Shown: positions 6,103 through 20,000 of the stretch, in pieces
Layout: every line of letters starts with the position of its first letter
Numbering within the stretch: position 1 is the stretch's first letter
DNA from: an uncultured virus (IMG/VR IMGVR_UViG_3300021399_000162)
Taxonomy: Duplodnaviria; Heunggongvirae; Uroviricota; Caudoviricetes
DNA: 20,000 bases
Reading direction: 5' to 3' (one strand)
Virus record (IMG/VR): IMGVR_UViG_3300021399_000162
The notes under the pieces: generated by a model
Seen by the model: only the letters and a program-made list of their open reading frames with translations
Database searches by the model: none
Told to the model about the DNA's origin: nothing
Made by a program: the position numbers and the translations under genes

Positions 6103-6117
6103 GAGGAGATTATATTT

Positions 6118-6666: not shown

Positions 6667-6675
6667 TATCGGATC

Positions 6676-6702
6676 CGCGATATTTGTCCCTCCTATTATG
6701 AA
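6676..6702 (+). promoter_or_regulatory. Conserved promoter-like motif CGCGA-N13-YATTATGAA, copy 1
   Basis: CGCGA TATTTGTCCCTCC TATTATGAA, intergenic, followed by AAGGAGG and ATG 6724. One of five copies with identical spacing. Confidence 0.75.
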
Positions 6703-6723
6703 ATAATTAAGGAGGTGCTCTTT

Positions 6724-7023
6724 ATGGCACGTTTGATTCTCAATATTGTTTCTTTGTATATTGGACTCGGAATTGCGACGACTGTTATCGTGGTAGTATG
6801 TCTGGCACTGACGATCACATGGATGTCCGATGTCAAGCTTGGTGAGGCTTTTTTAAGGGCAACAACCTTTGCAAAAGTCTCCGGACTACTGGCATCGACA
6901 TTTCTATGGCCGGCTGTATGGATTGACTTCTTCCGGAAATACCCCGAGCAATCAAAGAAAAGTATACCTGAACAATCACGAGAATATGACGAGATGGTAA
7001 AGGATATACTCGAGAACAGTTAA
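6724..7023 (+). CDS. Small membrane protein (LWP-motif paralog 1)
   Basis: RBS AAGGAGG at 6709-6715 favours ATG 6724. Two hydrophobic segments, the second containing FLWP. Confidence 0.8.
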   Translation: MARLILNIVSLYIGLGIATTVIVVVCLALTITWMSDVKLGEAFLRATTFAKVSGLLASTFLWPAVWIDFFRKYPEQSKKSIPEQSREYDEMVKDILENS

Positions 7024-7027
7024 TTTC

Positions 7028-7073
7028 AGGCCTAAAGGTCTTGAGTGTGACAGCTCAAGGCCTTTTAGGCTTT
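7028..7073 (+). terminator. Repeated stem-loop (terminator-like), copy 1
   Basis: AGGCCTAAAGGTCTTGAG-TGTGACAG-CTCAAGGCCTTTTAGGCTTT immediately after the stop codon. Confidence 0.7.
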
Positions 7074-7076
7074 GCC

Positions 7077-7103
7077 CGCGAGTTTTATACCTCCTATTAT
7101 GAA
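7077..7103 (+). promoter_or_regulatory. Conserved promoter-like motif, copy 2
   Basis: CGCGA GTTTTATACCTCC TATTATGAA, followed by AAGGAGG and ATG 7128. Confidence 0.75.
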
Positions 7104-7127
7104 ATAAAACTTAAGGAGGTTTTTCTC

Positions 7128-7400
7128 ATGTCGTTTGATAGTATCGTATGTGTTTATTTCTGTGTTGGAATGATCTCATTTCCATGGATGAGCATAGCCA
7201 TGGCACTGTATGTAAACCATGGTGAAGATCCGGCAACGGGGCTTAAGATTATTGTGGATAGCCACAGTAACATTGAGCTTCTGATTGGGTTCTTCATCAT
7301 GATTATTCTGTGGCCACTGGTGCTGCTTGGAACTGTAAAAGGGATGTTCCAACGAGAAAAAGCACGCGAACTTGTGAACACACAGGAGACGGACGAGTAA
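7128..7400 (+). CDS. Small membrane protein (LWP-motif paralog 2)
   Basis: The AAGGAGG RBS supports ATG 7128 rather than the TTG at 7041, which lies inside the hairpin. Two hydrophobic segments and IILWP. Confidence 0.8.
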   Translation: MSFDSIVCVYFCVGMISFPWMSIAMALYVNHGEDPATGLKIIVDSHSNIELLIGFFIMIILWPLVLLGTVKGMFQREKARELVNTQETDE

Positions 7401-7404
7401 TTTC

Positions 7405-7451
7405 AGACTTGAAAGGTCTTGAGTATGACAGCTCAAGGCCTTTTAGGTTTT
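7405..7451 (+). terminator. Repeated stem-loop (terminator-like), copy 2
   Basis: AGACTTGAAAGGTCTTGAG-TATGACAG-CTCAAGGCCTTTTAGGTTTT, nearly identical to copy 1. Confidence 0.7.
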
Positions 7452-7454
7452 GTC

Positions 7455-7481
7455 CGCGATATTTGCACCTCCCATTATGAA
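7455..7481 (+). promoter_or_regulatory. Conserved promoter-like motif, copy 3
   Basis: CGCGA TATTTGCACCTCC CATTATGAA, followed by AAGGAGG and ATG 7503. Confidence 0.75.
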
Positions 7482-7502
7482 TAAGATTAAGGAGGTGCCT
7501 TT

Positions 7503-7751
7503 ATGGCAACTATTTGGACTATTATCTGTTGGTATTCGCAAATTGGTAAGATCGTGTATATACTCTGCCGCTGCTTGTACTGGTTCAACGAAGGAGGCGG
7601 AAACTTCATCCGTGGCATCAAAGCCTGGTTTAACAAACTTGGCAGTCATGCTGAAGATGAATTAAACCTGATCTTCGTTGCCTGGTTACTGTGGCCGGCT
7701 CTTATATACAAGACCATCAAGTTGCTTCGTGCCAAAGATGTAGCAAAATGA
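7503..7751 (+). CDS. Small membrane protein (LWP-motif paralog 3)
   Basis: RBS AAGGAGG. 82 aa with a hydrophobic N-terminal segment and a second segment containing WLLWP. Confidence 0.78.
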   Translation: MATIWTIICWYSQIGKIVYILCRCLYWFNEGGGNFIRGIKAWFNKLGSHAEDELNLIFVAWLLWPALIYKTIKLLRAKDVAK

Positions 7752-7784
7752 TTGTCTACTGGTAGAACTAAATCGGTTCGATTT

Positions 7785-7818
7785 AAAAGGTCTTGGGTAT
7801 AACAGCTCAAGGCCTTTT
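7785..7818 (+). terminator. Repeated stem-loop (terminator-like), copy 3
   Basis: AAAAGGTCTTGGG-TATAACAG-CTCAAGGCCTTTT. Same stem as copies 1 and 2, with an A>G change that still pairs as G-U. Confidence 0.68.
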
Positions 7819-7843
7819 GAGTTTTGACTTGGAGGTGAGTGCG

Positions 7844-7981
7844 ATGGATTACAGGAGTATCACTTGTAGTAGATATTTCTATACTTGGGAGCTTGAAGTC
7901 CGTAATGGATACCATCCACCTAAAAAGAAGAGACGATTGTGGAAGGAGTTTGTACAATGGCTGACAATGAAGAAAAACTGA
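7844..7981 (+). CDS. Small basic hypothetical protein
   Basis: GGAGGTG RBS at 7831 and ATG 7844. 45 aa. Confidence 0.5.
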   Translation: MDYRSITCSRYFYTWELEVRNGYHPPKKKRRLWKEFVQWLTMKKN

Positions 7982-8430
7982 AGAGCACCATTTCTAATCC
8001 GATAGACGAGTGTGTGTTTGAAAGTCTTTTCGGCATACCTCATCTTAGATCAGATATGCCTTTGGCGCCTGCATTGCTTGAAGAAACCATTAACAATCTT
8101 AACAAAAATCAAATACTGGAGGAGAAGAAACCTATGATGAATCGCAAGGAAGTACTTGATAGAGCTGACCAGTGTGTGAACGGAGACCGTGAAGGCTCGT
8201 ACGGATCGCCTGAGAATAACTTCGCCCGCATTGCAAAGATGTGGAATGCATACCTCGGGAACACATACCCTCGCAAGGATCTAAAGCCTTCTGACGTTGC
8301 TGCTATGTTGGCCCTGCTCAAACTTGCTCGCATCGGTTCCGGCAACTACAAAGATGACAACTGGATTGACCTTGCAGGCTATGCGGCTTGCGGTGGAGAG
8401 CTCCAGAGTATGGAGGAAGATGACGAATGA
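7957..8430 (+). CDS. DUF6378-like protein (all-alpha nucleotide pyrophosphohydrolase-like family); alternative start at 8134
   Basis: Motif GDREGSYG.PENNF..IA..W..YL...DVA.ML.LLKLAR.....DNWIDLAGYAACG. RBSs precede both 7957 and 8134. Confidence 0.75.
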   Translation: MADNEEKLKSTISNPIDECVFESLFGIPHLRSDMPLAPALLEETINNLNKNQILEEKKPMMNRKEVLDRADQCVNGDREGSYGSPENNFARIAKMWNAYLGNTYPRKDLKPSDVAAMLALLKLARIGSGNYKDDNWIDLAGYAACGGELQSMEEDDE

Positions 8431-8618
8431 CAACTGACGACATGCGGAATTATATCCGCTGCATCTATGGTGACCGGATCAGAGGGCAGTGGATAGGCCA
8501 CATGTCCGACAATCAGGTCATTGCAATCTACCGTTCACTCCAAGCAAGAGGAATAACCAAGCCTGTTGTCAAGAAAGATCCTCCCGGTGAAAAGTACGAA
8601 CAGCTTTCTTTCCTGTAA
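8427..8618 (+). CDS. Small phage hypothetical protein
   Basis: ATGA overlap with the previous stop and a GGAGG RBS. Contains W..HMSDNQVIAIY and ends EQLSFL. Confidence 0.7.
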   Translation: MTTDDMRNYIRCIYGDRIRGQWIGHMSDNQVIAIYRSLQARGITKPVVKKDPPGEKYEQLSFL

Positions 8619-8619
8619 G

Positions 8620-8646
8620 CGCGAATTTTGCATCCTCCATTATGAA
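8620..8646 (+). promoter_or_regulatory. Conserved promoter-like motif, copy 4
   Basis: CGCGA ATTTTGCATCCTC CATTATGAA, starting just after the stop at 8618 and upstream of the 8688 gene. Confidence 0.72.
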
Positions 8647-8687
8647 CAGAACGTTCACAATAAAATTAAATTTGGAGGATTTGACTT

Positions 8688-9098
8688 ATGAAGAAAATGT
8701 TTGTGCTTTATCTGGTACTGGCTCTGGTGTTCGGAATTATGAACATTGTTGTGGCAGAAATGGAACCGATATCGGTTGTTGATTCATATCTTGAAGAAGA
8801 CGAGCACGTAGAAGTTTGGGTGGCAAGTCGGTATCATGGCTTTGAGGCTGATGGCGACACTCGTGAATACGAAATTTACGAGTACATTATCGGCACTGAA
8901 GACCATGCGCTGACAGACACCGTGATTGCTTACGTTACCGTCGATGGAGACATCTATCAAGAACCTGTTCGGGCCTGGCTTGACACTGACAAGTTTGATA
9001 TTAATGACACACCTGAGACTATGGCCCAGAAGGTTATTGACTTGGCTAAAGAAAGCAAAGACTACGATTTACTGGCTATTGGTTGGACGACAAAGTGA
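8688..9098 (+). CDS. Secreted acidic protein with Sec-type signal peptide
   Basis: MKKMFVLYLVLALVFGIMNIVVA|E signal peptide, GGAGG RBS and a very acidic mature part. Confidence 0.8.
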   Translation: MKKMFVLYLVLALVFGIMNIVVAEMEPISVVDSYLEEDEHVEVWVASRYHGFEADGDTREYEIYEYIIGTEDHALTDTVIAYVTVDGDIYQEPVRAWLDTDKFDINDTPETMAQKVIDLAKESKDYDLLAIGWTTK

Positions 9099-9107
9099 CA
9101 AAGGCTG

Positions 9108-9148
9108 GAGGCTGTGCTGATGAAAAGGCATGGTCTCTTTCCTTTTTG
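9108..9148 (+). terminator. Intrinsic terminator
   Basis: GAGGCTGTGCT...GGCATGGTCTC stem with G-U pairs, followed by TTTCCTTTTT. Confidence 0.6.
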
Positions 9149-9163
9149 TTTGGAGTGACAGAC

Positions 9164-10417
9164 TTGTTTAAATTGAAGAAGCACCAAAGAGATGCACTGA
9201 AGCAGATTCATAATGGATGCATCGTGTGCGGCGGAGTTGGCTCAGGTAAATCGCTGACGGCTCTGTCGTACTATTATATTCTTAATGGCGGAAGCGAAGC
9301 GTTTCTTAACGGCGAATCATACGGCAAAATGAGCAGTCCAAGCGATTTGTACATCATTACCACTGCTAGAAAACGAGATACCTTTGAGTGGAAAAAGGAA
9401 CTGGCCGTCTTTCTGCTCTCCCAAAACACAGAACTAACACCTTACCACAACAAGGTAGTTGTTGATAGCTGGCAGAATGTACAGAAGTATATTTCCGTTA
9501 AGAACGCTTTCTTCATATTTGATGAGCAGCGTGTCGTGGGATCGGGCGCTTGGGCAAAGGCGTTCATCAAGATCTCGAAGAGCAACCAATGGATTATGTT
9601 GTCGGCTACTCCTGGCGATTCCTGGAGTGATTATGCTGCCGTGTTTATAGCAAATGGTTTTTACAAGAGTTTCACTGAGTTCCGCAACGAGCACGTTGTA
9701 TATAGTGCATTCACTTCTTATCCGAAGATTGATAAATACATTGGAACAAAGAAACTCGAGCGATATCGAGACTTGGTACTGGTTGACATGTCGTTCGTTC
9801 GCAGAACCACTGCTCATCATTATGATATTTTTACAGGCTTTGATGGAGACCGGTACAAGCGTGTGTATCGTGAACGGGTTGATCCGGACACTGGCGAGCC
9901 CATACAGAACGCTGCCGGTCTTTGCTATACCCTTCGAAGGATTGTGAACTCGGATGAGTCCAGGCAGGTTGCTATGCTGGAATTGGCTGAGCAGTGGCCT
10001 AAGATGATCGTATTCTACAACTTCGACTATGAGCTTGATATTCTCAGAGGGTTAGCCTGGCCTGAAGGAACTGTAGTAACTGAATGGAACGGTCATAAGC
10101 ACGATCCCATTGCTGTCGAGTCAGACAGGTGGATCTACTTAGTTCAGTACAACTCTGGAGCTGAGGGTTGGAACTGTATTGAGACAAACGTGCTTGTGTT
10201 CTATTCTCAGAATTACTCATACAAAATGATGGTGCAGTCAGCAGGACGTATTGATCGGATGAATACGCCTTTTATTGATTTGTACTATTACCATCTGAAG
10301 AGCAGGTCGGGTATTGATCTTGCGATTAGTCGGGCTCTTGCTCAGAAGAAGAACTTTAATGAAGGGAGGTTCTGCTTGAAATGGGCGGAGCAACAGAATC
10401 CCCGAAGTGGCATATGA
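9164..10417 (+). CDS. SF2 (SNF2-like) DNA helicase
   Basis: Q motif (KHQ), Walker A GGVGSGKS, Walker B FIFDEQ, motif III LSAT, AEGWN and motif VI QSAGRIDR. TTG 9164 after GGAG is preferred because 9083 spans the terminator. Confidence 0.88.
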   Translation: MFKLKKHQRDALKQIHNGCIVCGGVGSGKSLTALSYYYILNGGSEAFLNGESYGKMSSPSDLYIITTARKRDTFEWKKELAVFLLSQNTELTPYHNKVVVDSWQNVQKYISVKNAFFIFDEQRVVGSGAWAKAFIKISKSNQWIMLSATPGDSWSDYAAVFIANGFYKSFTEFRNEHVVYSAFTSYPKIDKYIGTKKLERYRDLVLVDMSFVRRTTAHHYDIFTGFDGDRYKRVYRERVDPDTGEPIQNAAGLCYTLRRIVNSDESRQVAMLELAEQWPKMIVFYNFDYELDILRGLAWPEGTVVTEWNGHKHDPIAVESDRWIYLVQYNSGAEGWNCIETNVLVFYSQNYSYKMMVQSAGRIDRMNTPFIDLYYYHLKSRSGIDLAISRALAQKKNFNEGRFCLKWAEQQNPRSGI

Positions 10418-10590
10418 AGTGGGGTGTGCGCGTGAATTCGGAGGTGAAGCCTGTTGGTACCAAAATTAACTGTACAGGTTGTTTGCACTTATATTTGAAC
10501 TCAGACGGATCGTATGGGTGCGATCATCCAGGTGAACATGCTTGCTTAACTAGTCGGTACAGAGTGTTTAAGGAGGTTAAAGATGAGTGA
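10414..10590 (+). CDS. Small Cys-rich protein (possible metal binding)
   Basis: ATGA overlap with the helicase stop. Contains CTGC..H..C..C. Confidence 0.55.
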   Translation: MKWGVRVNSEVKPVGTKINCTGCLHLYLNSDGSYGCDHPGEHACLTSRYRVFKEVKDE

Positions 10591-10894
10591 TTACTGGTAC
10601 TATCTAATTATATTCCTGCTGTCTTTTATTACTCTGCAGTTGATGAGGATACGGTATCGTCTTGATCAGATTAAAGATAAACTCGATCACCATAACAAAG
10701 TAACTGTTGATATGATCCGGCAGTTAGATAATACCATTGTGCGAAACTACTCATTTTGTGTTGACGATGGGTTTAGTGGATGGCAGCCTTGGAGCATTGA
10801 TAGTTTTAAGGAGGGTGAAAACAATGACGGCAGACGAGGAGAGGCTGGAACGAGCCAAGATCAAGCAACTGGAGAAGATAGCTACGATTCTTGA
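10583..10894 (+). CDS. Membrane-anchored coiled-coil hypothetical protein
   Basis: AAGGAGG RBS and N-terminal hydrophobic YWYYLIIFLLSFITL. Confidence 0.65.
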   Translation: MSDYWYYLIIFLLSFITLQLMRIRYRLDQIKDKLDHHNKVTVDMIRQLDNTIVRNYSFCVDDGFSGWQPWSIDSFKEGENNDGRRGEAGTSQDQATGEDSYDS

Positions 10895-11045
10895 CAAAAT
10901 TGATAAGCATCTTAAGGCACTGATTCCGGAACCGCCTAAGGATGTTATTGAGAATGATGATCCTTTCCGAACTGGATATTTGAAAGATGGTATGAAACTT
11001 AGTGTTACTTGTGATGTTGAGGAGGGCAACACAGATGAAATTTGA
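10824..11045 (+). CDS. Hypothetical protein
   Basis: AAGGAGG RBS at ~10808-10814, ATG 10824 and a charged helical N-terminus. Confidence 0.65.
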   Translation: MTADEERLERAKIKQLEKIATILDKIDKHLKALIPEPPKDVIENDDPFRTGYLKDGMKLSVTCDVEEGNTDEI

Positions 11046-11853
11046 TGGAAAGAACCTTGAAGAAGTATTGGCAGCACAAAAACGGTATGTTGAGGAATGG
11101 GTTAGTCACGGCGAAGTAGAAGCATCTATAGCTGATTTCAGCGAATGCCAGTTGAGGGGTATTGATTTCTCTCGTCGTGATTTGAGTGAGGCTGATTTCT
11201 CCGGCTGCTATCTGATTGAATGTAAATTCAATGATGCCAATCTACACAGTGCTAATTTCAGGAATGCCACTCTGGAAGAAGTAGAGTTCAAATCTACGAA
11301 AATGACTTGTGTAGATTTTGAGAATGCTCGTATTGATGTAAGCATTTTCGAAGATGTGAGTCTTTATTACGCCAATTTCCATAATGCTCAACTGATGTAT
11401 ACGGATATTAACCATTCCAGGATCAACGATGACACCTGTTTGTGTGGTCTTAGACTGCATAAGGTCAAGAATATGCCTTATGTTCCCATGGTCTGTCCTG
11501 AAGAGGGTGAGTTCATTGGATGGAAGGCTTGCGACTATGGATATTCTGATTTCCACAAGAGTCAGACAGTCATTGTGAAGCTGCGTATACCTGCTGATGC
11601 AAAACGTTCGTCCGCTCTTGGTCGTAAGTGTCGTGCAAGCAAAGCTGAGGTGCTGGCTGTGTATGATCTTGACGGTAACGAATTGGACCCAGCGATTACT
11701 CCTCATTCCTTCTTTAATGATAACTTCATGTACCATGTCGGAGCCATTGTTGAACCAACTGTCCCCTTTGAGGAAAACCGTTGGGAGGAATGCGCTCCTG
11801 GTATTCACTTCTTTATCAACCGTCGGGAAGCAATTGAGTATGTAAGTGTTTAA
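11035..11853 (+). CDS. Pentapeptide-repeat protein with DUF5758-like C-terminal domain (paralog 1)
   Basis: A(D/N)(F/L)xx repeats (ADFSE, IDFSR, ADFSG, ANLHS, ANFRN). C-terminal CPEEGEFIGWK...IVKL.IP.DAKRSSA.GRKCRASKA...RW.EC..GIHFF. GAGGAGG RBS before ATG 11035. Confidence 0.9.
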   Translation: MKFDGKNLEEVLAAQKRYVEEWVSHGEVEASIADFSECQLRGIDFSRRDLSEADFSGCYLIECKFNDANLHSANFRNATLEEVEFKSTKMTCVDFENARIDVSIFEDVSLYYANFHNAQLMYTDINHSRINDDTCLCGLRLHKVKNMPYVPMVCPEEGEFIGWKACDYGYSDFHKSQTVIVKLRIPADAKRSSALGRKCRASKAEVLAVYDLDGNELDPAITPHSFFNDNFMYHVGAIVEPTVPFEENRWEECAPGIHFFINRREAIEYVSV

Positions 11854-11883
11854 ATTATATTTAATTAAGGAGGATTTAACTTT

Positions 11884-12693
11884 ATGAAATATGACGGAAC
11901 TAATCTTGAGGCTGTGTTGAAAGCCCATAGAAGTTATCTTGCCAATGTAAAAAATGAGGATGGGTCCAGGGCTGATTTCTCTGGAGAGGTTCTTGAGGAC
12001 TTAGATTTTAGTATGAGAGAATTGGCTGGTGCAGATTTTTTTGGTACTACAATTAAAAATTGTAACTTCTGTGATGCTAATCTGAAGTTTTCAGATTTCA
12101 GTAATGCTAGCATTGGCAACAGCCGGTTCAGCCGTGCTCAGATCTATGCAGCTAATCTCACTAATTCACACTTTTGGTGTTGCCAGATGGATAATGTCAA
12201 TCTTGAAAGCGCTTGCATGCGTTATGCGCGTTTAAGATATGGTGATTTTGAAAACGCTGTGATCAGTCCCACTACTGATTTATGTGGTCTTAACGTAGCT
12301 CATGTGAAAAATATGTTTTATGTGCCAATGGCTTGTCCTGAAGAAGGCGAGTTCATTGCTTGGAAGAAGTGTGTGGCCGTTGACCGAGATGGAACAGGGC
12401 TGCATAAAGAGGTTATTGTGAAGCTGAAGATCCCTAAAAGGGCTCGTCGGTCGTCTGCTCTTGGCCGTAAGTGTCGTGCAAGTGAAGCTATTGTCTTAGC
12501 CATTCAGGACCTTAAAGGCAATGACATTAGTCGTAAAGTTGCAGCTTTTTCATCATACTGCAATGACTTTGCATATGAGCTTGGTAAGACAGTTATACCT
12601 CGTGAACCTTTTGATGATGACCGTTGGAACGAGTGTTCAACCGGCATTCACTTCTTTATTAACCGCAAGGAAGCGGTCGACTATTCACTGTGA
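11884..12693 (+). CDS. Pentapeptide-repeat protein with DUF5758-like C-terminal domain (paralog 2)
   Basis: Same architecture and motifs as 11035..11853. AAGGAGG RBS. Confidence 0.9.
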   Translation: MKYDGTNLEAVLKAHRSYLANVKNEDGSRADFSGEVLEDLDFSMRELAGADFFGTTIKNCNFCDANLKFSDFSNASIGNSRFSRAQIYAANLTNSHFWCCQMDNVNLESACMRYARLRYGDFENAVISPTTDLCGLNVAHVKNMFYVPMACPEEGEFIAWKKCVAVDRDGTGLHKEVIVKLKIPKRARRSSALGRKCRASEAIVLAIQDLKGNDISRKVAAFSSYCNDFAYELGKTVIPREPFDDDRWNECSTGIHFFINRKEAVDYSL

Positions 12694-12716
12694 TATTTAA
12701 TAAGGAGGAAACAACT

Positions 12717-13286
12717 ATGAATTACCAGAACTACTACGAATTCCGTAAAGCTAAGGAAGCCGCTGCTGCTCAGAAGAGCGAGTCCGAACTGAACGAAGAG
12801 AACCGTAAATTGAAGATGTGGCTTGGTATTGCCATTGGCACGACAGTCTTTGCGGGTCTTGGCTGCTATTATTGCTGGAAAGATACGCAGGCTTGCAAGG
12901 CACTGATATCCGAAGCAAATGCCCACGTGAAGCGCATTGCCAACATCAATGTGAATGAGCGTGTGGTTGAGAATGCGGTCAATAAGGCGACCAAGGAAGC
13001 CGCTGATAAGGCCGTTTACAGCGCCACACAGAGCGTTTTCGCAGAGACTAAAGCAGAGATCCGGGCGAAGGTTAAGGCCGCTGTAGAGGCGTCTATGGCC
13101 AAAGTAACGGATGCTGTAGCAGTCAAGATGGCTAAGGAAGTCGCTGATATTTCTCGAGAGGACATTATTGACGACGTAGTTAAGGCTACGACTGAGAAAC
13201 TGTCCGATATGCTTGAGGAAGAGCTTGGCGACGAGATGACCAAGGTTGGTGAGATCTACAAGAATATTGTGGAGGCTCTCAACTGA
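12717..13286 (+). CDS. Membrane-anchored Ala/Lys/Val-rich helical protein
   Basis: AAGGAGG RBS and ATG 12717. One TM segment (WLGIAIGTTVFAGLGCYYCW) followed by a long amphipathic helical region. Confidence 0.78.
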   Translation: MNYQNYYEFRKAKEAAAAQKSESELNEENRKLKMWLGIAIGTTVFAGLGCYYCWKDTQACKALISEANAHVKRIANINVNERVVENAVNKATKEAADKAVYSATQSVFAETKAEIRAKVKAAVEASMAKVTDAVAVKMAKEVADISREDIIDDVVKATTEKLSDMLEEELGDEMTKVGEIYKNIVEALN

Positions 13287-13313
13287 TATTCTCTTGGATA
13301 GTTGGCAGTTTTT

Positions 13314-13356
13314 GAGGGGGTTGGGTCGCTTTATGACCCAATCTCTCTTCTTTTTT
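13314..13356 (+). terminator. Intrinsic terminator
   Basis: GAGGGGGTTGGGTCG-CTTTA-TGACCCAATCTCTC stem followed by TTCTTTTTT. Confidence 0.75.
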
Positions 13357-13396
13357 GACCTATTTGCGACTAAATTATAGGAAGGATGATATATTT

Positions 13397-14074
13397 ATGA
13401 AGGCAATTGAGGCTGGTTATGATATTTTGGATGAGATTTCGTATGGTGGAATCGAGGAATTGAAGAAAATTGAGCGTGCTGCGAGGACTTGCTACAAGTC
13501 TGAAGACAAAATTACGGAAGATGGCTCTTCAGCAAAGAAGCTTGTGGCCGGTTTGATAAAGTCTGGACACGAGGCAATGCTCGAACATGGAGGTCTTTCA
13601 GTGCGCTTTATCTGTGATAGAGGGGTGTCACACGAGCTCGTAAGGCATAGAATGGCGTCATTTGCCCAGGAATCTACCCGGTATTGCAACTATTCGAAGG
13701 ATAAATTTGGCAAAGAATTGACCTTTGTGATACCTGAATTGCATAAAAATAACGAAATTATGGGCCCTGAAGAGTGGATTCTTTGGTCAAAAGCCATGAA
13801 AACCTGCGAAGAATGCTATATGAAGCTGCTTGATATCGGTGTTCCGCCCCAGTTGGCCAGGTCAGTGTTGCCGAATTCACTCAAAACTGAGGTTGTTGTG
13901 ACCGCAAATTGGCGTGAATGGCGTCACATTTTCAGTTTGCGGTGCGCTCCGGATGCTCATCCTGATATTCGATACCTTATGATGTGCCTTTTGGAGGAGC
14001 TTCACAGCAGAATTCCGGTACTTTTCGATGATATTTGGGAGAAATATGGGTTTGACGCAGCTGCAAAGGAGTGA
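13397..14074 (+). CDS. thyX: FAD-dependent thymidylate synthase
   Basis: ThyX signature RHRMASFAQESTRY, plus GHEAMLEH, ARSVLPN, NWREWRH and AHPDIR. ATG 13397 follows AGGAAGGA. Confidence 0.95.
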   Translation: MKAIEAGYDILDEISYGGIEELKKIERAARTCYKSEDKITEDGSSAKKLVAGLIKSGHEAMLEHGGLSVRFICDRGVSHELVRHRMASFAQESTRYCNYSKDKFGKELTFVIPELHKNNEIMGPEEWILWSKAMKTCEECYMKLLDIGVPPQLARSVLPNSLKTEVVVTANWREWRHIFSLRCAPDAHPDIRYLMMCLLEELHSRIPVLFDDIWEKYGFDAAAKE

Positions 14075-14081
14075 TTTTTGA

Positions 14082-14378
14082 ATGTTCAAGCGAATTTTGT
14101 GCGTCTTGATTATGTGTTTTATGCTATTTTTGCTCTGCGGATGCGATTGGGAGAACAATATTCGGGATGGAACAGTGTTTACCGTCGATCCTGAGACCAA
14201 AAATTTGCCTAAATCAACCGCTTTTGTGAGATTTGGAAACCAAATAAACCAATTTTACGTGTTTGATGTGGCTGATTATTCACTTGGAGGAGATAATTGG
14301 ATCGTTTTGAAGGCTAAAGATGGCCGAATTTTCAAGACTAGCCAGGTGAATGTGCTCATTATTGAGGGTTCTGACTGA
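14082..14378 (+). CDS. Putative lipoprotein
   Basis: MFKRILCVLIMCFMLFLLCG|C lipobox-like signal and an AAGGAG RBS. Confidence 0.75.
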   Translation: MFKRILCVLIMCFMLFLLCGCDWENNIRDGTVFTVDPETKNLPKSTAFVRFGNQINQFYVFDVADYSLGGDNWIVLKAKDGRIFKTSQVNVLIIEGSD

Positions 14379-14435
14379 TATTTTGAGGATTTTTCGACAG
14401 TAAATTGACGATTTTGAGAGGAGATTTTGCGAGTT

Positions 14436-14666
14436 ATGAACGGTTTTGTATGGTGTTTGTCTGTTATTTTTGTGGCTTTGGTGTTCAGTTTGGCGGTCGT
14501 TTTGGCCGGTTCTGCACTCATTGGAGTATGGTTTGAGACCAAAAATCGAGAGGCTAAGAAGGCTGCTGAAGGCGCTGCGAGTGCATTGAAGGAGCTTGCT
14601 GAGCTGATGAAAAACGACAAAAATCTTGGAAAAAATGAAGAGAAATCGGAGGAAAACGGGCATTGA
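14436..14666 (+). CDS. Small membrane protein
   Basis: Long N-terminal hydrophobic segment followed by a charged tail. GAGAGGAG-like RBS upstream. Confidence 0.6.
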   Translation: MNGFVWCLSVIFVALVFSLAVVLAGSALIGVWFETKNREAKKAAEGAASALKELAELMKNDKNLGKNEEKSEENGH

Positions 14667-14729
14667 AATGAATGATATTTTGAAGATTGTTTGGCAAAAA
14701 TCGTGAAAACCCTGGTAAAAATTGTGTAA

Positions 14730-15046
14730 AAAATGGCCATTTTGCTGCCCACCCAAAAGTGGGCAGAAGGTGGGCAGAGGGTGGGCAGAAGCGGTTTTTG
14801 GCGATTTTTGTTAACAATTTGTTCACAATTTTCTAATCAAATTTTAATTTTTTGGGTCAAAAATTGCAAAAAAGTGGCCAAAAGTGGCCAGCTGCCCACC
14901 CTCTGCCCACCCAGGGTGGCCAGCTGAAACCGTTGGGGCCCAAGGGTTTGAGGGGTGTCTGCCCGGGTGGCCGGGTTTTTTCTTAACTAATATATAAAAG
15001 ATAATTATATATATTAAGTAGGGAAAAAGGGTGGCCACCTGGCCAG
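14730..15046. repeat. Non-coding direct/inverted repeat cluster with AT-rich core (putative replication origin)
   Basis: GTGGGCAG x3 (14759, 14770, 14781; 11-bp period) and CTGCCCAC x3 (14745, 14892, 14903). A perfect 20-bp inverted repeat at 14769-14788/14892-14911. GTGGCCA at 14874, 14884, 14916 and 15031. AT-rich stretch at ~14976-15020. Confidence 0.7.
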
Positions 15047-15192
15047 ATAGGATAAAACACATATTTTCCAAGATTTTGGTGGGTCTGGTTTTTGGTCAGA
15101 TTTGCGTCCAAGTTCGTGTGTCTCTTCAAGTTAACTTGCCTCTTGTTTTCGCTCAAAATTTGTGGCATGATATTTCTGAGGTGAACTGAGAA

Positions 15193-15477
15193 ATGGGTAA
15201 GTTTAGACTTGAATTCATGCGAACCGCTTATGACGAAAATGGTGACGAAGTACCCTGTGATATTTGCGACGGAACTATGAAGTGGAAACCATCTCGCAGA
15301 CTGTGGATTTGCAGCGACTGCGGTCGAGAGATGAAACGCGCACAGTTCTTCAATTATATCGGTGCTGACCCGCCAAGTACCAAGTGTCTTTCGTCGTGTC
15401 ATGAGAACTATCCCCTCTGCAAAAGATATTGTCCGTTCTTTGATGTCTCGGATGATCCTGATGGACCGATGATTTAA
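15193..15477 (+). CDS. Zinc-ribbon / Cys-rich protein
   Basis: CDIC...CSDC plus CLSSC...C...C. GAGGTG RBS. Confidence 0.75.
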   Translation: MGKFRLEFMRTAYDENGDEVPCDICDGTMKWKPSRRLWICSDCGREMKRAQFFNYIGADPPSTKCLSSCHENYPLCKRYCPFFDVSDDPDGPMI

Positions 15478-15501
15478 ATTTTTATAGGCTTATCGCAAAA
15501 T

Positions 15502-15545
15502 GAAGAGTCATTGTACTGATATTTGTGCAGTGGCTCTTTCTTTTG
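15502..15545 (+). terminator. Intrinsic terminator
   Basis: GAAGAGTCATTGTAC-TGATATTT-GTGCAGTGGCTCTTT stem followed by T runs. Confidence 0.7.
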
Positions 15546-15577
15546 TCCTTTTTGTCTTATTTTTATACCATTTCTTC

Positions 15578-15604
15578 CGCGATTTTTGCAATCTCTATTA
15601 TGAA
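15578..15604 (+). promoter_or_regulatory. Conserved promoter-like motif, copy 5 (upstream of the nuclease-RNAP operon)
   Basis: CGCGA TTTTTGCAATCTC TATTATGAA, just downstream of a terminator. Confidence 0.72.
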
Positions 15605-15682
15605 GAGAAAAGAACCTATTCGGCGACTTTCTCTTTTTCGTTTGTCAATGATATTTGGTGTGTTTTGGAGGTGATTCGGGCC

Positions 15683-15991
15683 ATGGCTCAGAACGAACGA
15701 GTGTTTCAGGCTAAGCTTATTAAAGAGCTTCATACACGCTTTGATCCTTGTATCGTTACCAAGATGGATTCCGGTCACATCCAGGGCATACCAGATCTAC
15801 TGATATTGCGCGGAAACAAATGGGCTACACTTGAAGACAAGAAGTCCAAAGACGCCTCGCATCGTCCTAACCAGGACTATTACGTTTCGCAAATGAACGG
15901 CATGTCTTTTAGCCGTTTTATTTATCCTGAGAATAAGGAGGAGGTTCTGAATGAGCTCTCAAACTTTTTCCTTGGACCGAACGCGCAGTAA
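15683..15991 (+). CDS. VRR-NUC-like PD-(D/E)XK nuclease (putative Holliday junction resolvase)
   Basis: E..FQ..LIK.L...GIPDLLIL....ATLEDK....RPNQ.YY motif series. The GGAGGTG RBS supports ATG 15683. Confidence 0.82.
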   Translation: MAQNERVFQAKLIKELHTRFDPCIVTKMDSGHIQGIPDLLILRGNKWATLEDKKSKDASHRPNQDYYVSQMNGMSFSRFIYPENKEEVLNELSNFFLGPNAQ

Positions 15992-16028
15992 ATGATATTC
16001 CCTTTCGCTGCAAGAAAGGACCTAACAC

Positions 16029-16586
16029 ATGCAATTTAACAAGCATTACAACCTTGAAGGCAGTCATGCTTTTCTTGGTGCCAGCAAATATCATTGGATA
16101 AACTACGACGAAGAGAAACTCATCGCAAGCTACAATAGCTTCCTGGCTGCACAGAAAGGCACAGAGCTTCATAGCTTTGCTGCACAGTGCATTAAACTTG
16201 GCCAGCGTCTTCCAAAGAGTCACAAGACTCTCAATATGTATGTGAACGACGCTATTGGTTTCAAGATGGTCCCCGAGCAGGTGCTGTACTATTCAGACAA
16301 CTGTTATGGCACAGCAGACTCAATTATATTCAAAGATGATTTCCTCAGGATCCACGATCTTAAGACTGGCGCGACACCGACTCATATGGAGCAGCTAATG
16401 ATATATGCTGCTCTTTTTTGTTTGGAGTACAGAGTTAAACCTGGTCTGATAGGTATGGAACTGAGAATCTACCAGAACGATGATATTGCTATTCTGCAGC
16501 CTCAAGCCACTGATATTCTCCCGATCATCGACAAAATTGTGACATTCGATAAACTCATCAATAAGATTAAAGAAGTAGAGGGTTGA
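16029..16586 (+). CDS. PD-(D/E)XK (DUF2800/Cas4-like) exonuclease
   Basis: HAFLGAS, GTELH, EQVL, GTADSI, IHDLKTG and QLMIYA match RecB-type motifs. AAAGGA RBS. Confidence 0.8.
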   Translation: MQFNKHYNLEGSHAFLGASKYHWINYDEEKLIASYNSFLAAQKGTELHSFAAQCIKLGQRLPKSHKTLNMYVNDAIGFKMVPEQVLYYSDNCYGTADSIIFKDDFLRIHDLKTGATPTHMEQLMIYAALFCLEYRVKPGLIGMELRIYQNDDIAILQPQATDILPIIDKIVTFDKLINKIKEVEG

Positions 16587-16591
16587 TGTGT

Positions 16592-19500: not shown

Positions 19501-19594
19501 GTTGAGTAAAGGTAAAACTCCTGCTCAAATTGCTGAAGTTATGCACATTTCTGAGTCTACTGTCAACTCTTACAGGAAAGGAGGCAAACCATAA
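16592..19594 (+). CDS. Single-chain two-barrel RNA polymerase (YonO / eukaryotic RdRP-like) with multiple HTH domains; start may be 16586
   Basis: RDG, YAQVRI...LKGM (~17531-17581), RYPH (18113-18124), LSGADFDGD (18260-18286), MGKVSN (~18521) and SMVVIDAEK (~18602-18628). HTHs near 16830-16890, 16961-17026 and 19511-19573. Confidence 0.82.
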   Translation: MNSVTKEMILHFSGDPLLLEGVDDDIDVIDVFLMHSGRGHDDNPPGRGSGVLPWGSGENPYQHAGDFVTRVKRARKQHPELSQDDIAKMVGCKSASDLKKQYSKSLSVYRVGRNKEIDALLKTGMTQQAVADKFGVNESTLRSWLNPESRKKAEKSQIIADGLEKLVKERGLIDVGAGVEKELNCSKEKLNEALAILQDKGYPIYGGRVPQATNPGKQTTIKALGDPSSDVKWSDLYQHPEKIQSVTDYIVREGPDGQEVFTKKWQYPAAIDPKRIMIRFRDDIAPDGHTGIERDGTIEIRRNVPDLDLKGSHYAQVRIMTQDGHYLKGMAHYASEEMPEGVDVIFNTNKTRAQADIVFKKIKSDPNNPFGALLRENGGQYTYIDKDGKEKLGLINKTRQEGDWEDWDDTLPSQFLAKQPRELIEKQLGKSIAAKKKEYEELISLTNPTVKKKLLEDFANGCDSDSIHLTAAKLPRQKYQVILPLPTLDDNEVYAPNFKNGETIALIRYPHAGLFEIPILKVNNNNPEAIKRFGSKDDGSGSAMDAICVNKHIADILSGADFDGDTVMCIPCNDTRYSDTKIANKPPLKDLEGFDPKDAYGYSDTYRTTETYIGKDGKEHIKDVDHYIRNGVEFKPMKRTQLEMGKVSNLIADMTAKGAPDSDLALAVKHSMVVIDAEKHHLDWQASEKDNRIAYLRKKYQEHYDDQASIDEDDPSYGASTLFTRAKSPYRVTKPTGTPHIDPETGKLVYTEKQLKPQMYTGKDGKQHIREMEVPLLSTKDSAFELVSVVNSKNPPKNMEDIFRTNPKEAAYALYSDQLRAMANEARKEILRSGDIKFNRSAQEQYSEEVAHLKEELLKSELNAPRERMAQYYARSVTLARKEENPDLTKKEIKKISNQALANGRVRYGAHRNTVDISEKEWDAIQAGAIPATSLKRLLNYADMDKVRAYATPRQGVKLTEGQQNRIKAMLSKGKTPAQIAEVMHISESTVNSYRKGGKP

Positions 19595-19860
19595 TGGATG
19601 AACAGGAATATAGAGAGTGTGCAATCACTACAAAGGACAATCCATACGACCCTTTTACTCAGTTTGATCATTGGTTCTTGTTTGACGTTGAAAAAGGCTA
19701 CTATTCATGTGGCTATTTGGCTCGTGTTTGCCACATTTCCAGTGAAATGACTGAAGATGAGGTGAATCAGGTCATTGAACAAGCAATTGATGACATTATT
19801 CGTCTCGATTTTACAGGAATGTACACCAAAAAATACAGAGACGAGCCTGTTCCGGCCTAA
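19594..19860 (+). CDS. Small acidic phage protein
   Basis: TAATG coupling with the RNAP stop and a GGAGG RBS. Motif ITT.DNPYDPFTQFD.W..FD..KGY. Confidence 0.8.
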   Translation: MDEQEYRECAITTKDNPYDPFTQFDHWFLFDVEKGYYSCGYLARVCHISSEMTEDEVNQVIEQAIDDIIRLDFTGMYTKKYRDEPVPA

Positions 19861-19927
19861 AAATAGGCCATTTTTGACCACTTTTAAAGCCTCTAACCTC
19901 CCTATTAGTGGCTTTACCCCGTTCTAA

Positions 19928-20000
19928 GGGCATGGGGGGGGTCCCGCAATGACTCCCCCTCCCCTTTTCGCAGGGTCATCAGAAAAACCTCCGGGGGACC
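19928..20000. other. G/C-run-rich non-coding sequence; possible genome terminus / cos region
   Basis: GGGGGGGG...CCCCCTCCCCTTTTCGCAGGGTC...AAAAACCTCCGGGGG after the last gene of the operon. Confidence 0.4.

What the first reader, a model, noticed from the sequence alone, without database searches (positions are those of the whole stretch)
6676..15604. Five-copy fixed-spacing motif CGCGA-N13-YATTATGAA: candidate promoter for the phage RNAP
Seen: copies at 6676-6702, 7077-7103, 7455-7481, 8620-8646 and 15578-15604. All are intergenic, on the + strand, with an exact 13-nt spacer (T-rich then C-rich). Each lies just after a stop codon or hairpin and upstream of an RBS. The upstream box is not TTGACA and the spacer is too short for a sigma-A promoter. 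Inference: a bipartite phage-specific promoter read by the HTH-bearing RNAP. Copy 5 heads the operon that encodes the RNAP itself, implying positive autoregulation. Together these would form a compact orthogonal polymerase-promoter system.
Basis: partly seen in the sequence, partly recalled or inferred. Interest (0 to 1): 0.85.

Follow-up and report, generated by a model that had tools for sequence, protein, structure and literature searches.

The report
Promoter set of a phage polymerase
Five copies of a roughly 28-base signal in this gut phage belong to a promoter family found only in phages that carry an unusual one-protein RNA polymerase, which probably reads them; this would be a compact, self-contained gene-expression system that has not yet been tested at the bench.

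Summary
CGCGA-N13-YATTATGAA occurs 5 times, all on the + strand, against 0 expected.

It is the window's share of a sharply bounded element, about -24 to +4. This element is the top de novo dyad in every relative I examined: four IMG/VR relatives, Faecalibacterium phage FP_oengus, Streptomyces phage Rima and Arthrobacter phage Gordon. A weight matrix finds 276 forward and 3 reverse sites in about 1.75 Mb.

In five host genomes (about 16 Mb), 38 of 39 pattern hits lie inside the prophage that encodes the polymerase. So it is not a host promoter class.

One copy lies about 0.9-1.4 kb upstream of the polymerase gene in nearly all relatives. That copy is window copy 5.

Ribosome-binding sites start 0-2 nt after the motif in 50 of 226 sites. 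Only 31% of sites have the A that sigma-70 needs. Both argue for a start at the G right after TWAT.

This link is inferred, not shown.

Earlier notes of this scan flagged the same polymerase family and a promoter-like motif on other DNA.

The parts
6676..6702 (+). Copy 1 (CGCGATATTTGTCCCTCCTATTATGAA). Weak variant that lacks the CA at motif positions 12-13. Inferred start G at 6700. Serves ORF 6724-7023.
   Evidence: 15.3 bits. Begins 10 nt after the stop of 6118-6666.
7028..7072 (+). Terminator-like hairpin with a U-rich tail, directly upstream of copy 2.
   Evidence: -27.9 kcal/mol, z -5.2.
7077..7103 (+). Copy 2. Inferred start G at 7101. Serves ORF 7128-7400. The only copy that also passes a loose sigma-70 scan (TTGCCC-17-TATTAT).
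   Evidence: (18.8 bits).
7405..7450 (+). Terminator-like hairpin, a near-duplicate of the one at 7028-7072, directly upstream of copy 3.
   Evidence: (-27.6 kcal/mol, z -6.2) and the alignment.
7455..7481 (+). Copy 3. Inferred start G at 7479. Serves ORF 7503-7751.
   Evidence: 25.2 bits.
8620..8646 (+). Copy 4. Inferred start G at 8644. Serves ORF 8688-9098 and the helicase gene 9083-10417 behind it.
   Evidence: (25.2 bits).
15495..15546 (+). Terminator-like hairpin with a T-rich tail upstream of copy 5.
   Evidence: -26.3 kcal/mol, z -7.4.
15578..15604 (+). Copy 5, the best-scoring copy. Inferred start G at 15602. Heads the endonuclease-exonuclease-polymerase operon. It is the homologue of the copy conserved about 0.9-1.4 kb upstream of the polymerase gene in nearly all relatives.
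   Evidence: (36.2 bits).
15683..15991 (+). Endonuclease gene, first gene behind copy 5. The start ATG at 15683 was read from the sequence.
   Evidence: (phrog_93, E 2.4e-11, on the longer ORF 15500-15991).
16029..16586 (+). Exonuclease gene.
   Evidence: phrog_3953, E 8e-81; DUF2800.
16583..19594 (+). Gene for the 1003-aa single-chain two-barrel RNA polymerase. It has HTH domains at about aa 123-166 and a sigma-70 region-4-like HTH at about aa 961-999. Proposed reader of the motif.
   Evidence: HTH_23 1.6e-10, Sigma70_r4_2 5.1e-8, weak RdRP. (phrog_4291, 5.4e-290). (invariant GADFDGD). (AF2 pLDDT 79.7; Foldseek QDE-1 E 8.4e-7, phage gp64 RNA polymerase 3.7e-6).
19594..19860 (+). Small conserved ORF, last gene of the copy-5 operon. 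It is followed by a short terminator-like hairpin at 19854-19869.
   Evidence: (phrog_4303, 5.4e-31).

Best explanation
The five copies are promoters of a class that is private to one family of phages and prophages. This family comprises FP_oengus-like phages of gut Clostridia and their actinophage and lactococcal relatives.

The element runs from about -24 to +4. Its parts are CGC at -24 to -22, a W-rich tract, CA at -13/-12, T at -6, TWAT at -4 to -1, and then a purine start G-R-A. Transcription most likely begins at the G directly after TWAT.

The most likely reader is the phage's own 1003-aa two-barrel RNA polymerase (YonO/QDE-1-like), acting without a sigma factor and using its fused HTH domains to recognise the upstream duplex part. 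The AT-rich -4 to -1 segment would be melted.

In this window the promoters drive small genes and replication genes. Copy 5 drives the endonuclease-exonuclease-polymerase operon, so once some polymerase exists it would amplify its own synthesis.

Shown here: the motif is real, directional, sharply bounded, phage-private and tied to the polymerase gene.
For: (1) Reality and direction.
- 5 of 5 window copies are on the + strand, with 0 expected.
- The weight matrix gives 276 forward and 3 reverse hits in about 1.75 Mb of relatives.
- 226 of 258 non-redundant sites have an SD, a start codon and an ORF of at least 35 codons within 120 nt downstream.

(2) Independent de novo recovery. The same dyad ranks first in each genome tested:
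- the window, G002, G003, G004 and G005
- FP_oengus, 11 copies
- Streptomyces phage Rima, 11 copies
- Arthrobacter phage Gordon, 7 copies

(3) Not a host promoter class.
- In five whole host genomes, 38 of 39 hits to CGCRWWWWWW-N10-TTATGR lie upstream of or beside the prophage polymerase gene on its strand. The reversed-pattern controls gave 0, 0, 2, 0 and 0 hits.
- Sigma-70-like sites in the window number 33 against 34.3 +/- 6.9 expected, and only 1 of the 5 copies qualifies.

(4) Geometry unlike sigma-70.
- The would-be -11 position is A in only 31% of 251 distinct sites.
- Only 78 of 251 have both A at -11 and T at -7.
- The SD core starts 0-2 nt after the motif's G in 50 of 226 sites, and 0-6 nt after it in 70 of 226.
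- Conservation starts abruptly at -24 and continues through +4.

(5) Link to the polymerase.
- 73 of 80 genome loci that encode the polymerase have at least one forward match.
- 78 of 176 matches sit 500-1500 nt upstream of the gene.
- Of 80 IMG/VR loci fetched by the conserved subtype pattern, 73 have the polymerase downstream on the same strand. Four are too short to tell. Of the last three, two contigs encode it elsewhere and one is a 59%-complete fragment.

(6) Few other candidate readers.
- No Sigma70_r2 was found in G002-G005 or FP_oengus, while the control search scored in 10 bacterial genomes.
- Of 83 ORFs in complete genome G003, only six non-structural proteins are shared with all six comparators: DNA polymerase, helicase, endonuclease, exonuclease, a 196-aa protein of unknown function, and the polymerase. 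The polymerase is the only one with recognisable HTH domains.

(7) The protein is a two-barrel RNA polymerase.
- Invariant GADFDGD motif.
- AF2 pLDDT 79.7.
- Foldseek hits QDE-1 (E 8.4e-7) and a phage gp64 RNA polymerase (E 3.7e-6).
Against: - There are no transcript 5' ends and no assay. The only RNA runs found were low-depth metatranscriptome contigs, which cannot show starts.
- In the window's own five copies, YATTAT does carry A and T at the sigma-70 -11 and -7 positions, and the box sits 13 nt upstream. This matches the geometry of activator-dependent T4 middle promoters (recalled, not checked in a paper). From the window alone, host sigma-A plus a phage activator cannot be excluded.
- The SD argument applies to 50-70 of 226 family sites but to none of the window's five, whose SDs start 10 nt or more after the G.
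- The polymerase gene sits behind a promoter of its own class, and many relatives are prophages. Some host-dependent entry point must therefore exist, and I did not find one.
- The structural and late modules carry no copy. If the enzyme is a late-gene polymerase like YonO, it would need another signal or read-through past the hairpin at 19854-19869.
- Hairpin-plus-U terminators next to three copies are typical of host-polymerase transcription units.
- By eye I saw no simple match between variants of the C-terminal HTH recognition helix and variants of the box. No formal covariation test was run.
Confidence: 0.65

Rival explanations
1. The host sigma-A RNA polymerase uses YATTAT as a -10 element. 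A conserved phage-encoded activator bound at the CGCGA/CA part replaces -35 recognition, as in sigma appropriation at T4 middle promoters. On this reading the phage's own polymerase serves other genes.
For: - All five window copies have A and T at the -11 and -7 equivalents.
- Rima and Gordon have a perfect TATAAT at that place.
- The box-to-hexamer spacing of 13 nt resembles MotA-box promoters (recalled).
- Intrinsic-terminator-like hairpins flank three copies.
- Prophages need host polymerase to get started.
- YonO, the one tested relative, transcribes late genes only (PMC5467207, passages read), whereas these copies sit in the early and replication regions.
Against: - Across the family the -11 equivalent is A in 31% and T in 59% of 251 distinct sites.
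- SD cores start 0-2 nt after the hexamer's following G in 50 of 226 sites, so a start about 7 nt downstream would cut them off.
- G-R-A-R after the hexamer is conserved.
- No sigma region 2 was found in five phage genomes.
- The Pfam and PHROG scans of the 27 window ORFs named no activator.
- The only universally conserved non-structural proteins without a known role are a 196-aa protein and, in 5 of 6 comparators, a 273-aa protein.
Confidence: 0.17
2. The repeats are 'boundary sequences' whose main role is to promote homologous recombination and gene shuffling between related phages. This was proposed for a 32-bp intergenic repeat of cluster AU Arthrobacter phages.
For: - The preprint 10.1101/2020.01.10.891226 (passages read) reports six intergenic copies flanking a gene cassette prone to rearrangement in phages of the same polymerase-bearing cluster.
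- In the window, copies 2 and 3 come with near-identical hairpins, as if a cassette had been duplicated.
Against: - The strict strand bias, 276 forward against 3 reverse.
- The fixed position just upstream of SDs.
- The sharp -24 to +4 footprint, with conservation of single bases across two host phyla.
- The conserved placement before the polymerase operon.

These are the properties of a read signal, not merely of homology patches. Recombination at repeated promoters could be a side effect. I could not see the preprint's logo (it is a figure), so that its repeat equals this motif is likely but unverified.
Confidence: 0.04
3. The motif is an operator or an RNA-level signal. Either it is a binding site for a phage repressor or regulator (possibly the HTH domains of the polymerase protein acting as a regulator), or it is a processing or stability signal within longer transcripts.
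For: - Many copies per genome, with high base conservation.
- The polymerase protein carries three HTH-type hits.
- Temperate members need to silence about 15-20 transcription units at once.
Against: - The element is asymmetric, with no dyad symmetry, unlike typical operators.
- It has no internal complementarity that would form an RNA structure.
- There is no Rfam match in the window.
- Its fixed short distance to SDs, and the purine run at the inferred start, fit initiation better.
Confidence: 0.08

Closest known systems
YonO of Bacillus prophage SPbeta and its promoter P_YonO (Forrest et al. 2017, PMC5467207; passages read)
   Same: A single-chain two-barrel RNA polymerase encoded by a temperate phage of a Gram-positive host. 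It uses a phage-specific start site.
   Different: YonO's promoter sequence was left undetermined, and it serves one late operon. Here there is a defined multi-copy motif in the early and replication regions. The enzyme carries fused HTH and sigma-4-like domains, and by PHROG it belongs to another family (phrog_4291).
Thermus phage P23-45 gp64 non-virion and gp96 virion two-barrel RNA polymerases with their GC-rich and AT-rich promoter motifs (preprint 10.1101/2022.12.01.518664; passages read)
   Same: Phage two-barrel polymerases, each with a private motif within -30 to +1 of mapped starts. Motif and polymerase co-occur across related phages. A gp64-type structure is among the Foldseek hits (8f72, E 3.7e-6).
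   Different: Those promoters were mapped by cappable-seq and ChIP-seq; here nothing is mapped. The sequences are unrelated. Whether those enzymes carry fused HTH domains was not examined here.
T7-type single-subunit RNA polymerase promoters (recalled from general knowledge)
   Same: A compact contiguous promoter that abuts the start site, with an AT-rich -4 to -1 segment, a purine (G) start, and many co-oriented copies in one phage genome.
   Different: The polymerase fold is unrelated (right-hand type against two-barrel), and so is the sequence. The resemblance is functional only.
T4 middle promoters (MotA box at about -30 plus a sigma-70 -10; recalled from general knowledge)
   Same: An upstream box 12-13 bp from a -10-like hexamer, with no -35 element.
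   Different: See the first rival explanation: the family-wide loss of the -11 A, the SD adjacency, and no MotA/AsiA-like or sigma gene recognised.
32-bp intergenic 'boundary' repeat of cluster AU Arthrobacter phages (preprint 10.1101/2020.01.10.891226; passages read)
   Same: Probably the same element. Arthrobacter phage Gordon (cluster AU) carries about 9 early-region copies of cTCGCAAGAATTACA-N4-TTATAATGAG, plus one before the endonuclease gene.
   Different: It was interpreted as a recombination signal. The words 'promoter' and 'RNA polymerase' do not occur in that text. Identity with this motif is unverified because the logo is only in a figure.
The 'putative RNA polymerase with HTH at both ends' of FP_oengus, Lactococcus phages and the actinophage supercluster (Koert et al. 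preprint 10.1101/842583; passages read)
   Same: The same protein family as window 16583-19594 (40-42% identity to FP_oengus).
   Different: That work predicts the enzyme only. The word 'promoter' does not occur in its text.

Membership tests
Sigma-70/sigma-A promoter (-35 TTGACA, 16-18 bp spacer, -10 TATAAT) | A -35-like hexamer 16-18 bp upstream of the -10 hexamer | tested here: not met
   Only 1 of 5 copies (copy 2, TTGCCC-17-TATTAT) passes a loose consensus scan. The window total is 33 sites against 34.3 +/- 6.9 in shuffles. Information content upstream of -24 is at most 0.7 bit.
Sigma-70/sigma-A promoter (-35 TTGACA, 16-18 bp spacer, -10 TATAAT) | A at -11 and T at -7 of the -10 hexamer | tested here: inconclusive
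   Met in 5 of 5 window copies, but in only 78 of 251 distinct family sites. The -11 equivalent is A in 31% and T in 59%.
Sigma-70/sigma-A promoter (-35 TTGACA, 16-18 bp spacer, -10 TATAAT) | The same promoter class is used by host genes | tested here: not met
   38 of 39 pattern hits in five host genomes lie in the polymerase-encoding prophage.
Sigma-70/sigma-A promoter (-35 TTGACA, 16-18 bp spacer, -10 TATAAT) | Start site about 5-9 nt downstream of the -10 hexamer | not testable with these tools
   There are no 5'-end data. Indirectly, SD cores begin 0-2 nt after the hexamer's following G in 50 of 226 sites, which argues against this spacing.
Phage-polymerase-specific promoters (T7-like, P23-45-like) | Many co-oriented intergenic copies of one compact motif abutting the transcribed region | tested here: met
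Phage-polymerase-specific promoters (T7-like, P23-45-like) | The motif is confined to genomes that encode the polymerase | tested here: met
   The one exception is a 59%-complete contig.
Phage-polymerase-specific promoters (T7-like, P23-45-like) | Transcripts start at the motif and depend on the phage polymerase | not testable with these tools
   Needs 5'-end mapping and in vitro or in vivo assays.
T4 MotA-type middle promoters (sigma appropriation) | An activator box about 12-13 bp upstream of a sigma-70 -10 element | tested here: inconclusive
   The geometry fits in the window. The -10 quality fails in most of the family.
T4 MotA-type middle promoters (sigma appropriation) | Phage-encoded activator and co-activator (MotA/AsiA-like) | not tested
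   There was no dedicated search. The Pfam and PHROG scans of the 27 window ORFs named none.
Two-barrel single-chain RNA polymerases (YonO/QDE-1-like), for the proposed reader | Catalytic DxDGD loop | tested here: met
   GADFDGD, with D564, D566 and D568 invariant in 8 and in 49 sequences.
Two-barrel single-chain RNA polymerases (YonO/QDE-1-like), for the proposed reader | Double-psi beta-barrel polymerase fold | tested here: met
   AF2 mean pLDDT 79.7 and pTM 0.66. Foldseek hits: QDE-1 E 8.4e-7, phage gp64 RNA polymerase E 3.7e-6, RDR2 E 3.8e-5. TM-scores are low at 0.22-0.37. No sequence-level PDB hit.
Two-barrel single-chain RNA polymerases (YonO/QDE-1-like), for the proposed reader | DNA-dependent RNA synthesis | not testable with these tools
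   Biochemistry is needed. YonO is the tested precedent (PMC5467207, passages).

The most novel reading that the evidence does not exclude
The 1003-aa enzyme is a self-sufficient, sigma-free two-barrel RNA polymerase. Its fused HTH domains, including a sigma-region-4-like one at the C-terminus, read a 28-bp duplex promoter (-24 to +4) in cis, and it starts at the G after TWAT.

The polymerase-promoter pair has been kept almost unchanged from gut Clostridia prophages to Streptomyces and Arthrobacter phages. It would therefore work independently of the host. It would be a minimal natural model of promoter recognition by the cellular-type polymerase fold, and a portable orthogonal expression system. 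Its self-driven operon (copy 5) would act as a positive-feedback commitment switch for lytic growth.
Probability: 0.45. Interest if true: 0.85.

Novelty: new variant of a known kind. Interest (0 to 1): 0.7.

Why it matters
Phage polymerases with private promoters are a known kind (T7, N4, P23-45, AR9). For the YonO-like single-chain two-barrel enzymes, however, promoter recognition is largely open: YonO's own promoter was left undetermined in 2017.

This family pairs an uncharacterised polymerase that has built-in HTH and sigma-4-like domains with a sharply defined, highly conserved promoter. The pair occurs in 232 bacterial genome stretches encoding a relative and in 250 sequenced phage records.

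That makes a long-standing question directly testable with one protein and a 35-bp DNA fragment: how a minimal cellular-type polymerase finds and opens a promoter without sigma.

It also offers three practical gains:
- a candidate orthogonal expression system for Gram-positive bacteria and gut anaerobes
- a simple sequence handle for annotating transcription units in these prophages
- a different reading of the 'boundary repeats' reported in cluster AU phages

Tried and rejected
- **RNA evidence.** The best holds 6% of the sampled words. Laid on the window, they gave short contigs at depth 2.8-6.5, with no start or end information. This says nothing about transcription either way.
- **Own genome.** It is not held. 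The nearest record, G001, is a 7.3-kb near-identical fragment that repeats four of the copies.
- **DNA similarity.** A search of 6000-9200 against sequenced phages gave no match.
- **Covariation.** I looked for covariation between the C-terminal HTH recognition helix and box variants (CGCGA, CACGA, CGCA). Box variants mix within single genomes and I saw no simple code against the helices. I ran no formal test, so this is neither for nor against.
- **Second (late) motif.** There are no further main-motif copies, even at low matrix scores, in the late modules of FP_oengus, G002, G003 and G005. Conserved G-run and C-run elements downstream of the polymerase operon look more like a packaging or end region; I did not follow them up.
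- **L008-L016 lineage (870-aa polymerase).** The dyad count found nothing. The matrix then found one strong copy per locus, 2.65 kb upstream of the gene.
- **Pfam scan of small ORFs around 14.3-15.7 kb.** It failed twice on a frame slip of mine and I did not repeat it. I make no claim about those ORFs beyond reading the sequence.
- **Literature.** Searches found no description of this promoter. Searches were badly chosen and uninformative. The library lacks most subscription journals. The original Lactococcus phage 1706 paper was not found, so a description there cannot be excluded.
- **Other scans.** No Rfam family and no tRNA in the window.

Full report
**Observation.** The pattern CGCGA-N13-YATTATGAA has exactly five matches in the window, at 6676, 7077, 7455, 8620 and 15578. 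All are on the + strand. None of 200 dinucleotide-preserving shuffles gave even one match. Relaxing to three mismatches adds only six poor matches, four of them on the other strand, against 3.07 expected.

All long genes of the window lie on the + strand. Each copy sits in a short gap:
- Copy 1 is 10 nt after a stop codon, and copy 4 is 2 nt after one.
- Copies 2, 3 and 5 directly follow strong hairpins with U-rich tails: -27.9, -27.6 and -26.3 kcal/mol, z -5.2 to -7.4.
- Each is followed by a GGAGG-type ribosome-binding site and an ATG, at 6724, 7128, 7503, 8688 and 15683.

**Setting.** The window is the replication module of a tailed phage. Its genes are:
- a 1416-aa DNA polymerase/primase (phrog_4210)
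- an ssDNA-binding or annealing protein
- a helicase
- two pentapeptide-repeat/DUF5758 proteins
- ThyX
- an endonuclease and an exonuclease
- a 1003-aa protein that matches phrog_4291 over its whole length (E 5.4e-290)

The 1003-aa protein has HTH_23/HTH_3 hits at residues 123-166. It has a Sigma70_r4_2 hit at 977-997, part of a cluster of C-terminal HTH-type hits spanning about 961-999. It also has a weak hit to the eukaryotic RdRP family.

An alignment with relatives shows an invariant GADFDGD motif. An AlphaFold2 model (mean pLDDT 79.7) matches QDE-1 (E 8.4e-7), a phage gp64 RNA polymerase (8f72, E 3.7e-6) and plant RDR2 in Foldseek, with low TM-scores of 0.22-0.37. There is no sequence-level match to any solved structure.

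This is the 'putative RNA polymerase with HTH domains at both ends' predicted by Koert et al. for FP_oengus, Lactococcus phages and an actinophage supercluster (preprint 10.1101/842583; passages read). Homologues occur in 250 sequenced phage records and in 232 bacterial genome stretches that encode a relative, mostly gut Clostridia.

**The motif is a family trait, found independently in each genome.** I counted all spaced dyads de novo.

| Genome | Top dyad or site |
|---|---|
| Window | CGCGA-N14-ATTATG |
| G002 (polymerase 93% identical) | CGCGA-N13-TATTAT |
| G003 (56%) | CACGA...TATGGA |
| G004 (42%) | TTCGC...ATTATG |
| G005 (39%) | TCGCA...TATAGG |
| Faecalibacterium phage FP_oengus | CGCGA-N14-TTTATG, 11 copies |
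| Streptomyces phage Rima | TCGCA-N13-CTATA, 11 copies; sites read cTCGCAAGAATTACAyGCCCTATAATGAGACC |
| Arthrobacter phage Gordon | TCGCA-N13-TTATA, 7 copies |

A lineage with an 870-aa polymerase showed no dyad. It does have one strong copy per locus, 2.65 kb upstream of the gene.

I seeded a 45-column weight matrix with a loose regular expression and iterated it. It finds 276 forward and 3 reverse sites at 14 bits or more, in about 1.75 Mb of relatives oriented by the polymerase gene. The counts per genome, from the same matrix, are:
- G003: 15
- G004: 21
- G005: 18
- first 50 kb of FP_oengus: 14
- G002 (66% complete): 8
- the window: 5

**Anatomy.** I aligned sites at fixed offsets. Conservation rises abruptly at the first C of the box and falls off four bases (ordinary copies) or about eleven bases (pre-polymerase copies) after TWAT. 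The ten bases upstream are merely T-rich, at 0.7 bit or less.

Several positions that the seed expression did not constrain are strongly conserved:
- C at motif position 12: 98%
- A at position 13: 88%
- T at position 19: 86%
- a purine at position 27: 98%

The element is therefore one block rather than two boxes: CGC, a W-rich tract, CA, about five variable and often C-rich bases, T, N, TWAT, then G-R-A-R. Window copies 1 and 2 lack the CA and score lowest, at 15.3 and 18.8 bits. Copy 5 scores highest, at 36.2 bits.

**It is not a host promoter class.**
- In five whole host genomes of 2.8-4.1 Mb each, the pattern CGCRWWWWWW-N10-TTATGR has 39 hits. Of these, 38 lie on the polymerase gene's strand within about 28 kb upstream or 5 kb downstream of it. 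The one outlier is at 1,075,082 in the Faecalibacterium prausnitzii chromosome. The reversed-pattern control gave 0, 0, 2, 0 and 0 hits.
- In the window, sigma-70-like sites are no more frequent than in shuffles (33 against 34.3 +/- 6.9), and only copy 2 qualifies.
- The base that would be the sigma-70 -11 adenine is A in 31% and T in 59% of 251 distinct sites. Only 78 of 251 have both the -11 A and the -7 T.

**Where transcription probably starts.** Of 258 non-redundant sites, 226 have an SD core, a start codon 4-12 nt later and an ORF of at least 35 codons within 120 nt. The SD core begins 0-2 nt after the G that follows TWAT in 50 of these, and 0-6 nt after it in 70. A sigma-70-type start about 7 nt past the hexamer would remove those SDs.

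Together with the conserved purines G-R-A-R, this places the likely start at that G. The promoter would then span -24 to +4 and abut the start site, as in T7-type promoters (recalled) and the P23-45 promoters. This is an inference. In the window's own copies the SDs lie 10 nt or more downstream, so they do not discriminate.

**Link to the polymerase.**
- A forward match occurs in 73 of 80 polymerase-encoding genome loci, with 176 forward against 21 reverse overall.
- 78 of the 176 lie 500-1500 nt upstream of the gene. There the sequence is nearly constant: CGCGAAAAAAACATGCCCTTTTATGAAGAGAGA. Window copy 5, 1005 nt upstream of the gene, is this site.
- Scanning IMG/VR for that subtype gave at least 117 stretches, and 80 were fetched. 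In 73 the polymerase gene is downstream on the same strand, 71 of them at 881-1379 nt. Four loci are too short. Of the other three, two contigs encode the polymerase elsewhere and one is a 59%-complete fragment without it. This test is partly circular, because the pattern came from the copy linked to the gene.

**Who else could read it?** A signal conserved from Clostridia phages to Streptomyces and Arthrobacter phages needs an equally conserved reader.
- No Sigma70_r2 domain is found in G002-G005 or FP_oengus, while the same search scores in 10 control bacteria.
- Of 83 ORFs in the complete genome G003, only six non-structural proteins are shared at E 1e-4 or better with all six comparators: DNA polymerase, helicase, endonuclease, exonuclease, a 196-aa protein of unknown function, and the polymerase. 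The comparators are the window plus G002, G004, G005, FP_oengus, and the right arms of Rima and Gordon. The polymerase is the only one of the six with recognisable DNA-binding domains.

This makes the polymerase the most economical reader, but it does not prove it.

**What speaks against, or remains open.**
- No 5' ends are available. The only RNA runs were uninformative contigs.
- From the window alone, a host sigma-A plus phage-activator mechanism (T4 middle-promoter-like, recalled) fits the geometry.
- Many relatives are prophages, so the first polymerase molecules must come from host transcription. I found no candidate entry promoter.
- The structural and late modules have no copy, and the copy-5 operon ends at a small hairpin at 19854-19869. 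What transcribes the late genes is therefore unexplained. YonO, the one tested relative, is a late-gene enzyme.
- I saw no simple correspondence between HTH helix variants and box variants, and I ran no formal test.

**Comparison with what is known.**
- Phage polymerases with private promoters are well known. For two-barrel single-chain enzymes the nearest worked example is P23-45, with mapped starts, two motifs and ChIP-seq.
- YonO's promoter was explicitly left open.
- For the present family, the searches listed under Tried and rejected found no promoter description.
- One preprint reports a 32-bp intergenic repeat in cluster AU Arthrobacter phages and reads it as a recombination boundary. 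Its text contains neither 'promoter' nor 'RNA polymerase'. Gordon, a cluster AU phage, carries the present motif at comparable places, so this is probably the same element. I could not see the logo.
- Earlier notes of this scan on other genomes (e1-5872891, e1-4270999, e1-5851503) had already flagged the polymerase family and a promoter-like motif. I treat these as leads, not as evidence.

My odds:
- about 0.9 that this is a phage-private promoter class
- about 0.65 for the full statement that the HTH-bearing two-barrel polymerase reads it, starting at the G after TWAT

It is a new variant of a known kind, and it is readily testable.

Noticed in passing
window 14740-15050: A dense iteron field. 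GGTGGGCAG occurs three times at 11-nt spacing, its inverse CTGCCCACC three times, and GTGGCCA five or more times. A 20-nt perfect inverted repeat lies at 14769-14788 / 14892-14911. Next to it is an AT-rich near-palindrome at 14976-15028. It looks like a replication origin or another protein-loading site, and it lies just upstream of the copy-5 operon.
   Followed up: partly
window 19930-20000; loci L060-L139 within 2.5 kb after the polymerase gene: G-run and C-run elements follow the polymerase operon. Related 10-12-mers recur in relatives: TTCTCCTTTC in 27 of 42 loci, CACCCCCTCC in 22 of 42, and ATCGCGGCGGTC in 18 of 42. In the actinophages the genome ends fall here, so this may be the packaging or cos region, or the 'second motif' mentioned in an earlier scan note.
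   Followed up: partly
window 7028-7072 and 7405-7450: Two nearly identical terminator-like hairpins, each followed by a promoter copy, as if a hairpin-promoter cassette had been duplicated along with small genes.
   Followed up: partly
window 11002-11853 and 11884-12693: Two adjacent paralogous genes that each combine pentapeptide repeats with a C-terminal DUF5758 domain (E about 1e-29 to 1e-30). Function unknown. Pentapeptide-repeat proteins often mimic DNA.
   Followed up: no
window 15193-15477: A 94-aa ORF with paired-cysteine motifs (CxxC twice, plus more cysteines), read from the sequence as a zinc-ribbon-like protein, lying between the iteron field and copy 5. It had no Pfam or PHROG match.
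   Followed up: no
G006:C1:1075082-1075107 (Faecalibacterium prausnitzii chromosome): The single motif hit outside the polymerase-encoding prophage in five host genomes. Its context was not examined; it could be a prophage remnant or chance.
   Followed up: no
L064 14740-17502, L074 15620-17527, L133 13903: In some relatives, promoter copies also occur downstream of the polymerase gene. This differs from the window's close relative G002, where the roughly 32-kb structural module has none.
   Followed up: no
G002 527-1516 compared with window 15970-15993: The close relative G002 (87-92% nucleotide identity over the overlap) carries a 329-aa ORF at the place where the alignment with the window breaks, between the endonuclease and exonuclease genes. 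This is a gene-sized insertion or replacement inside the copy-5 operon.
   Followed up: no
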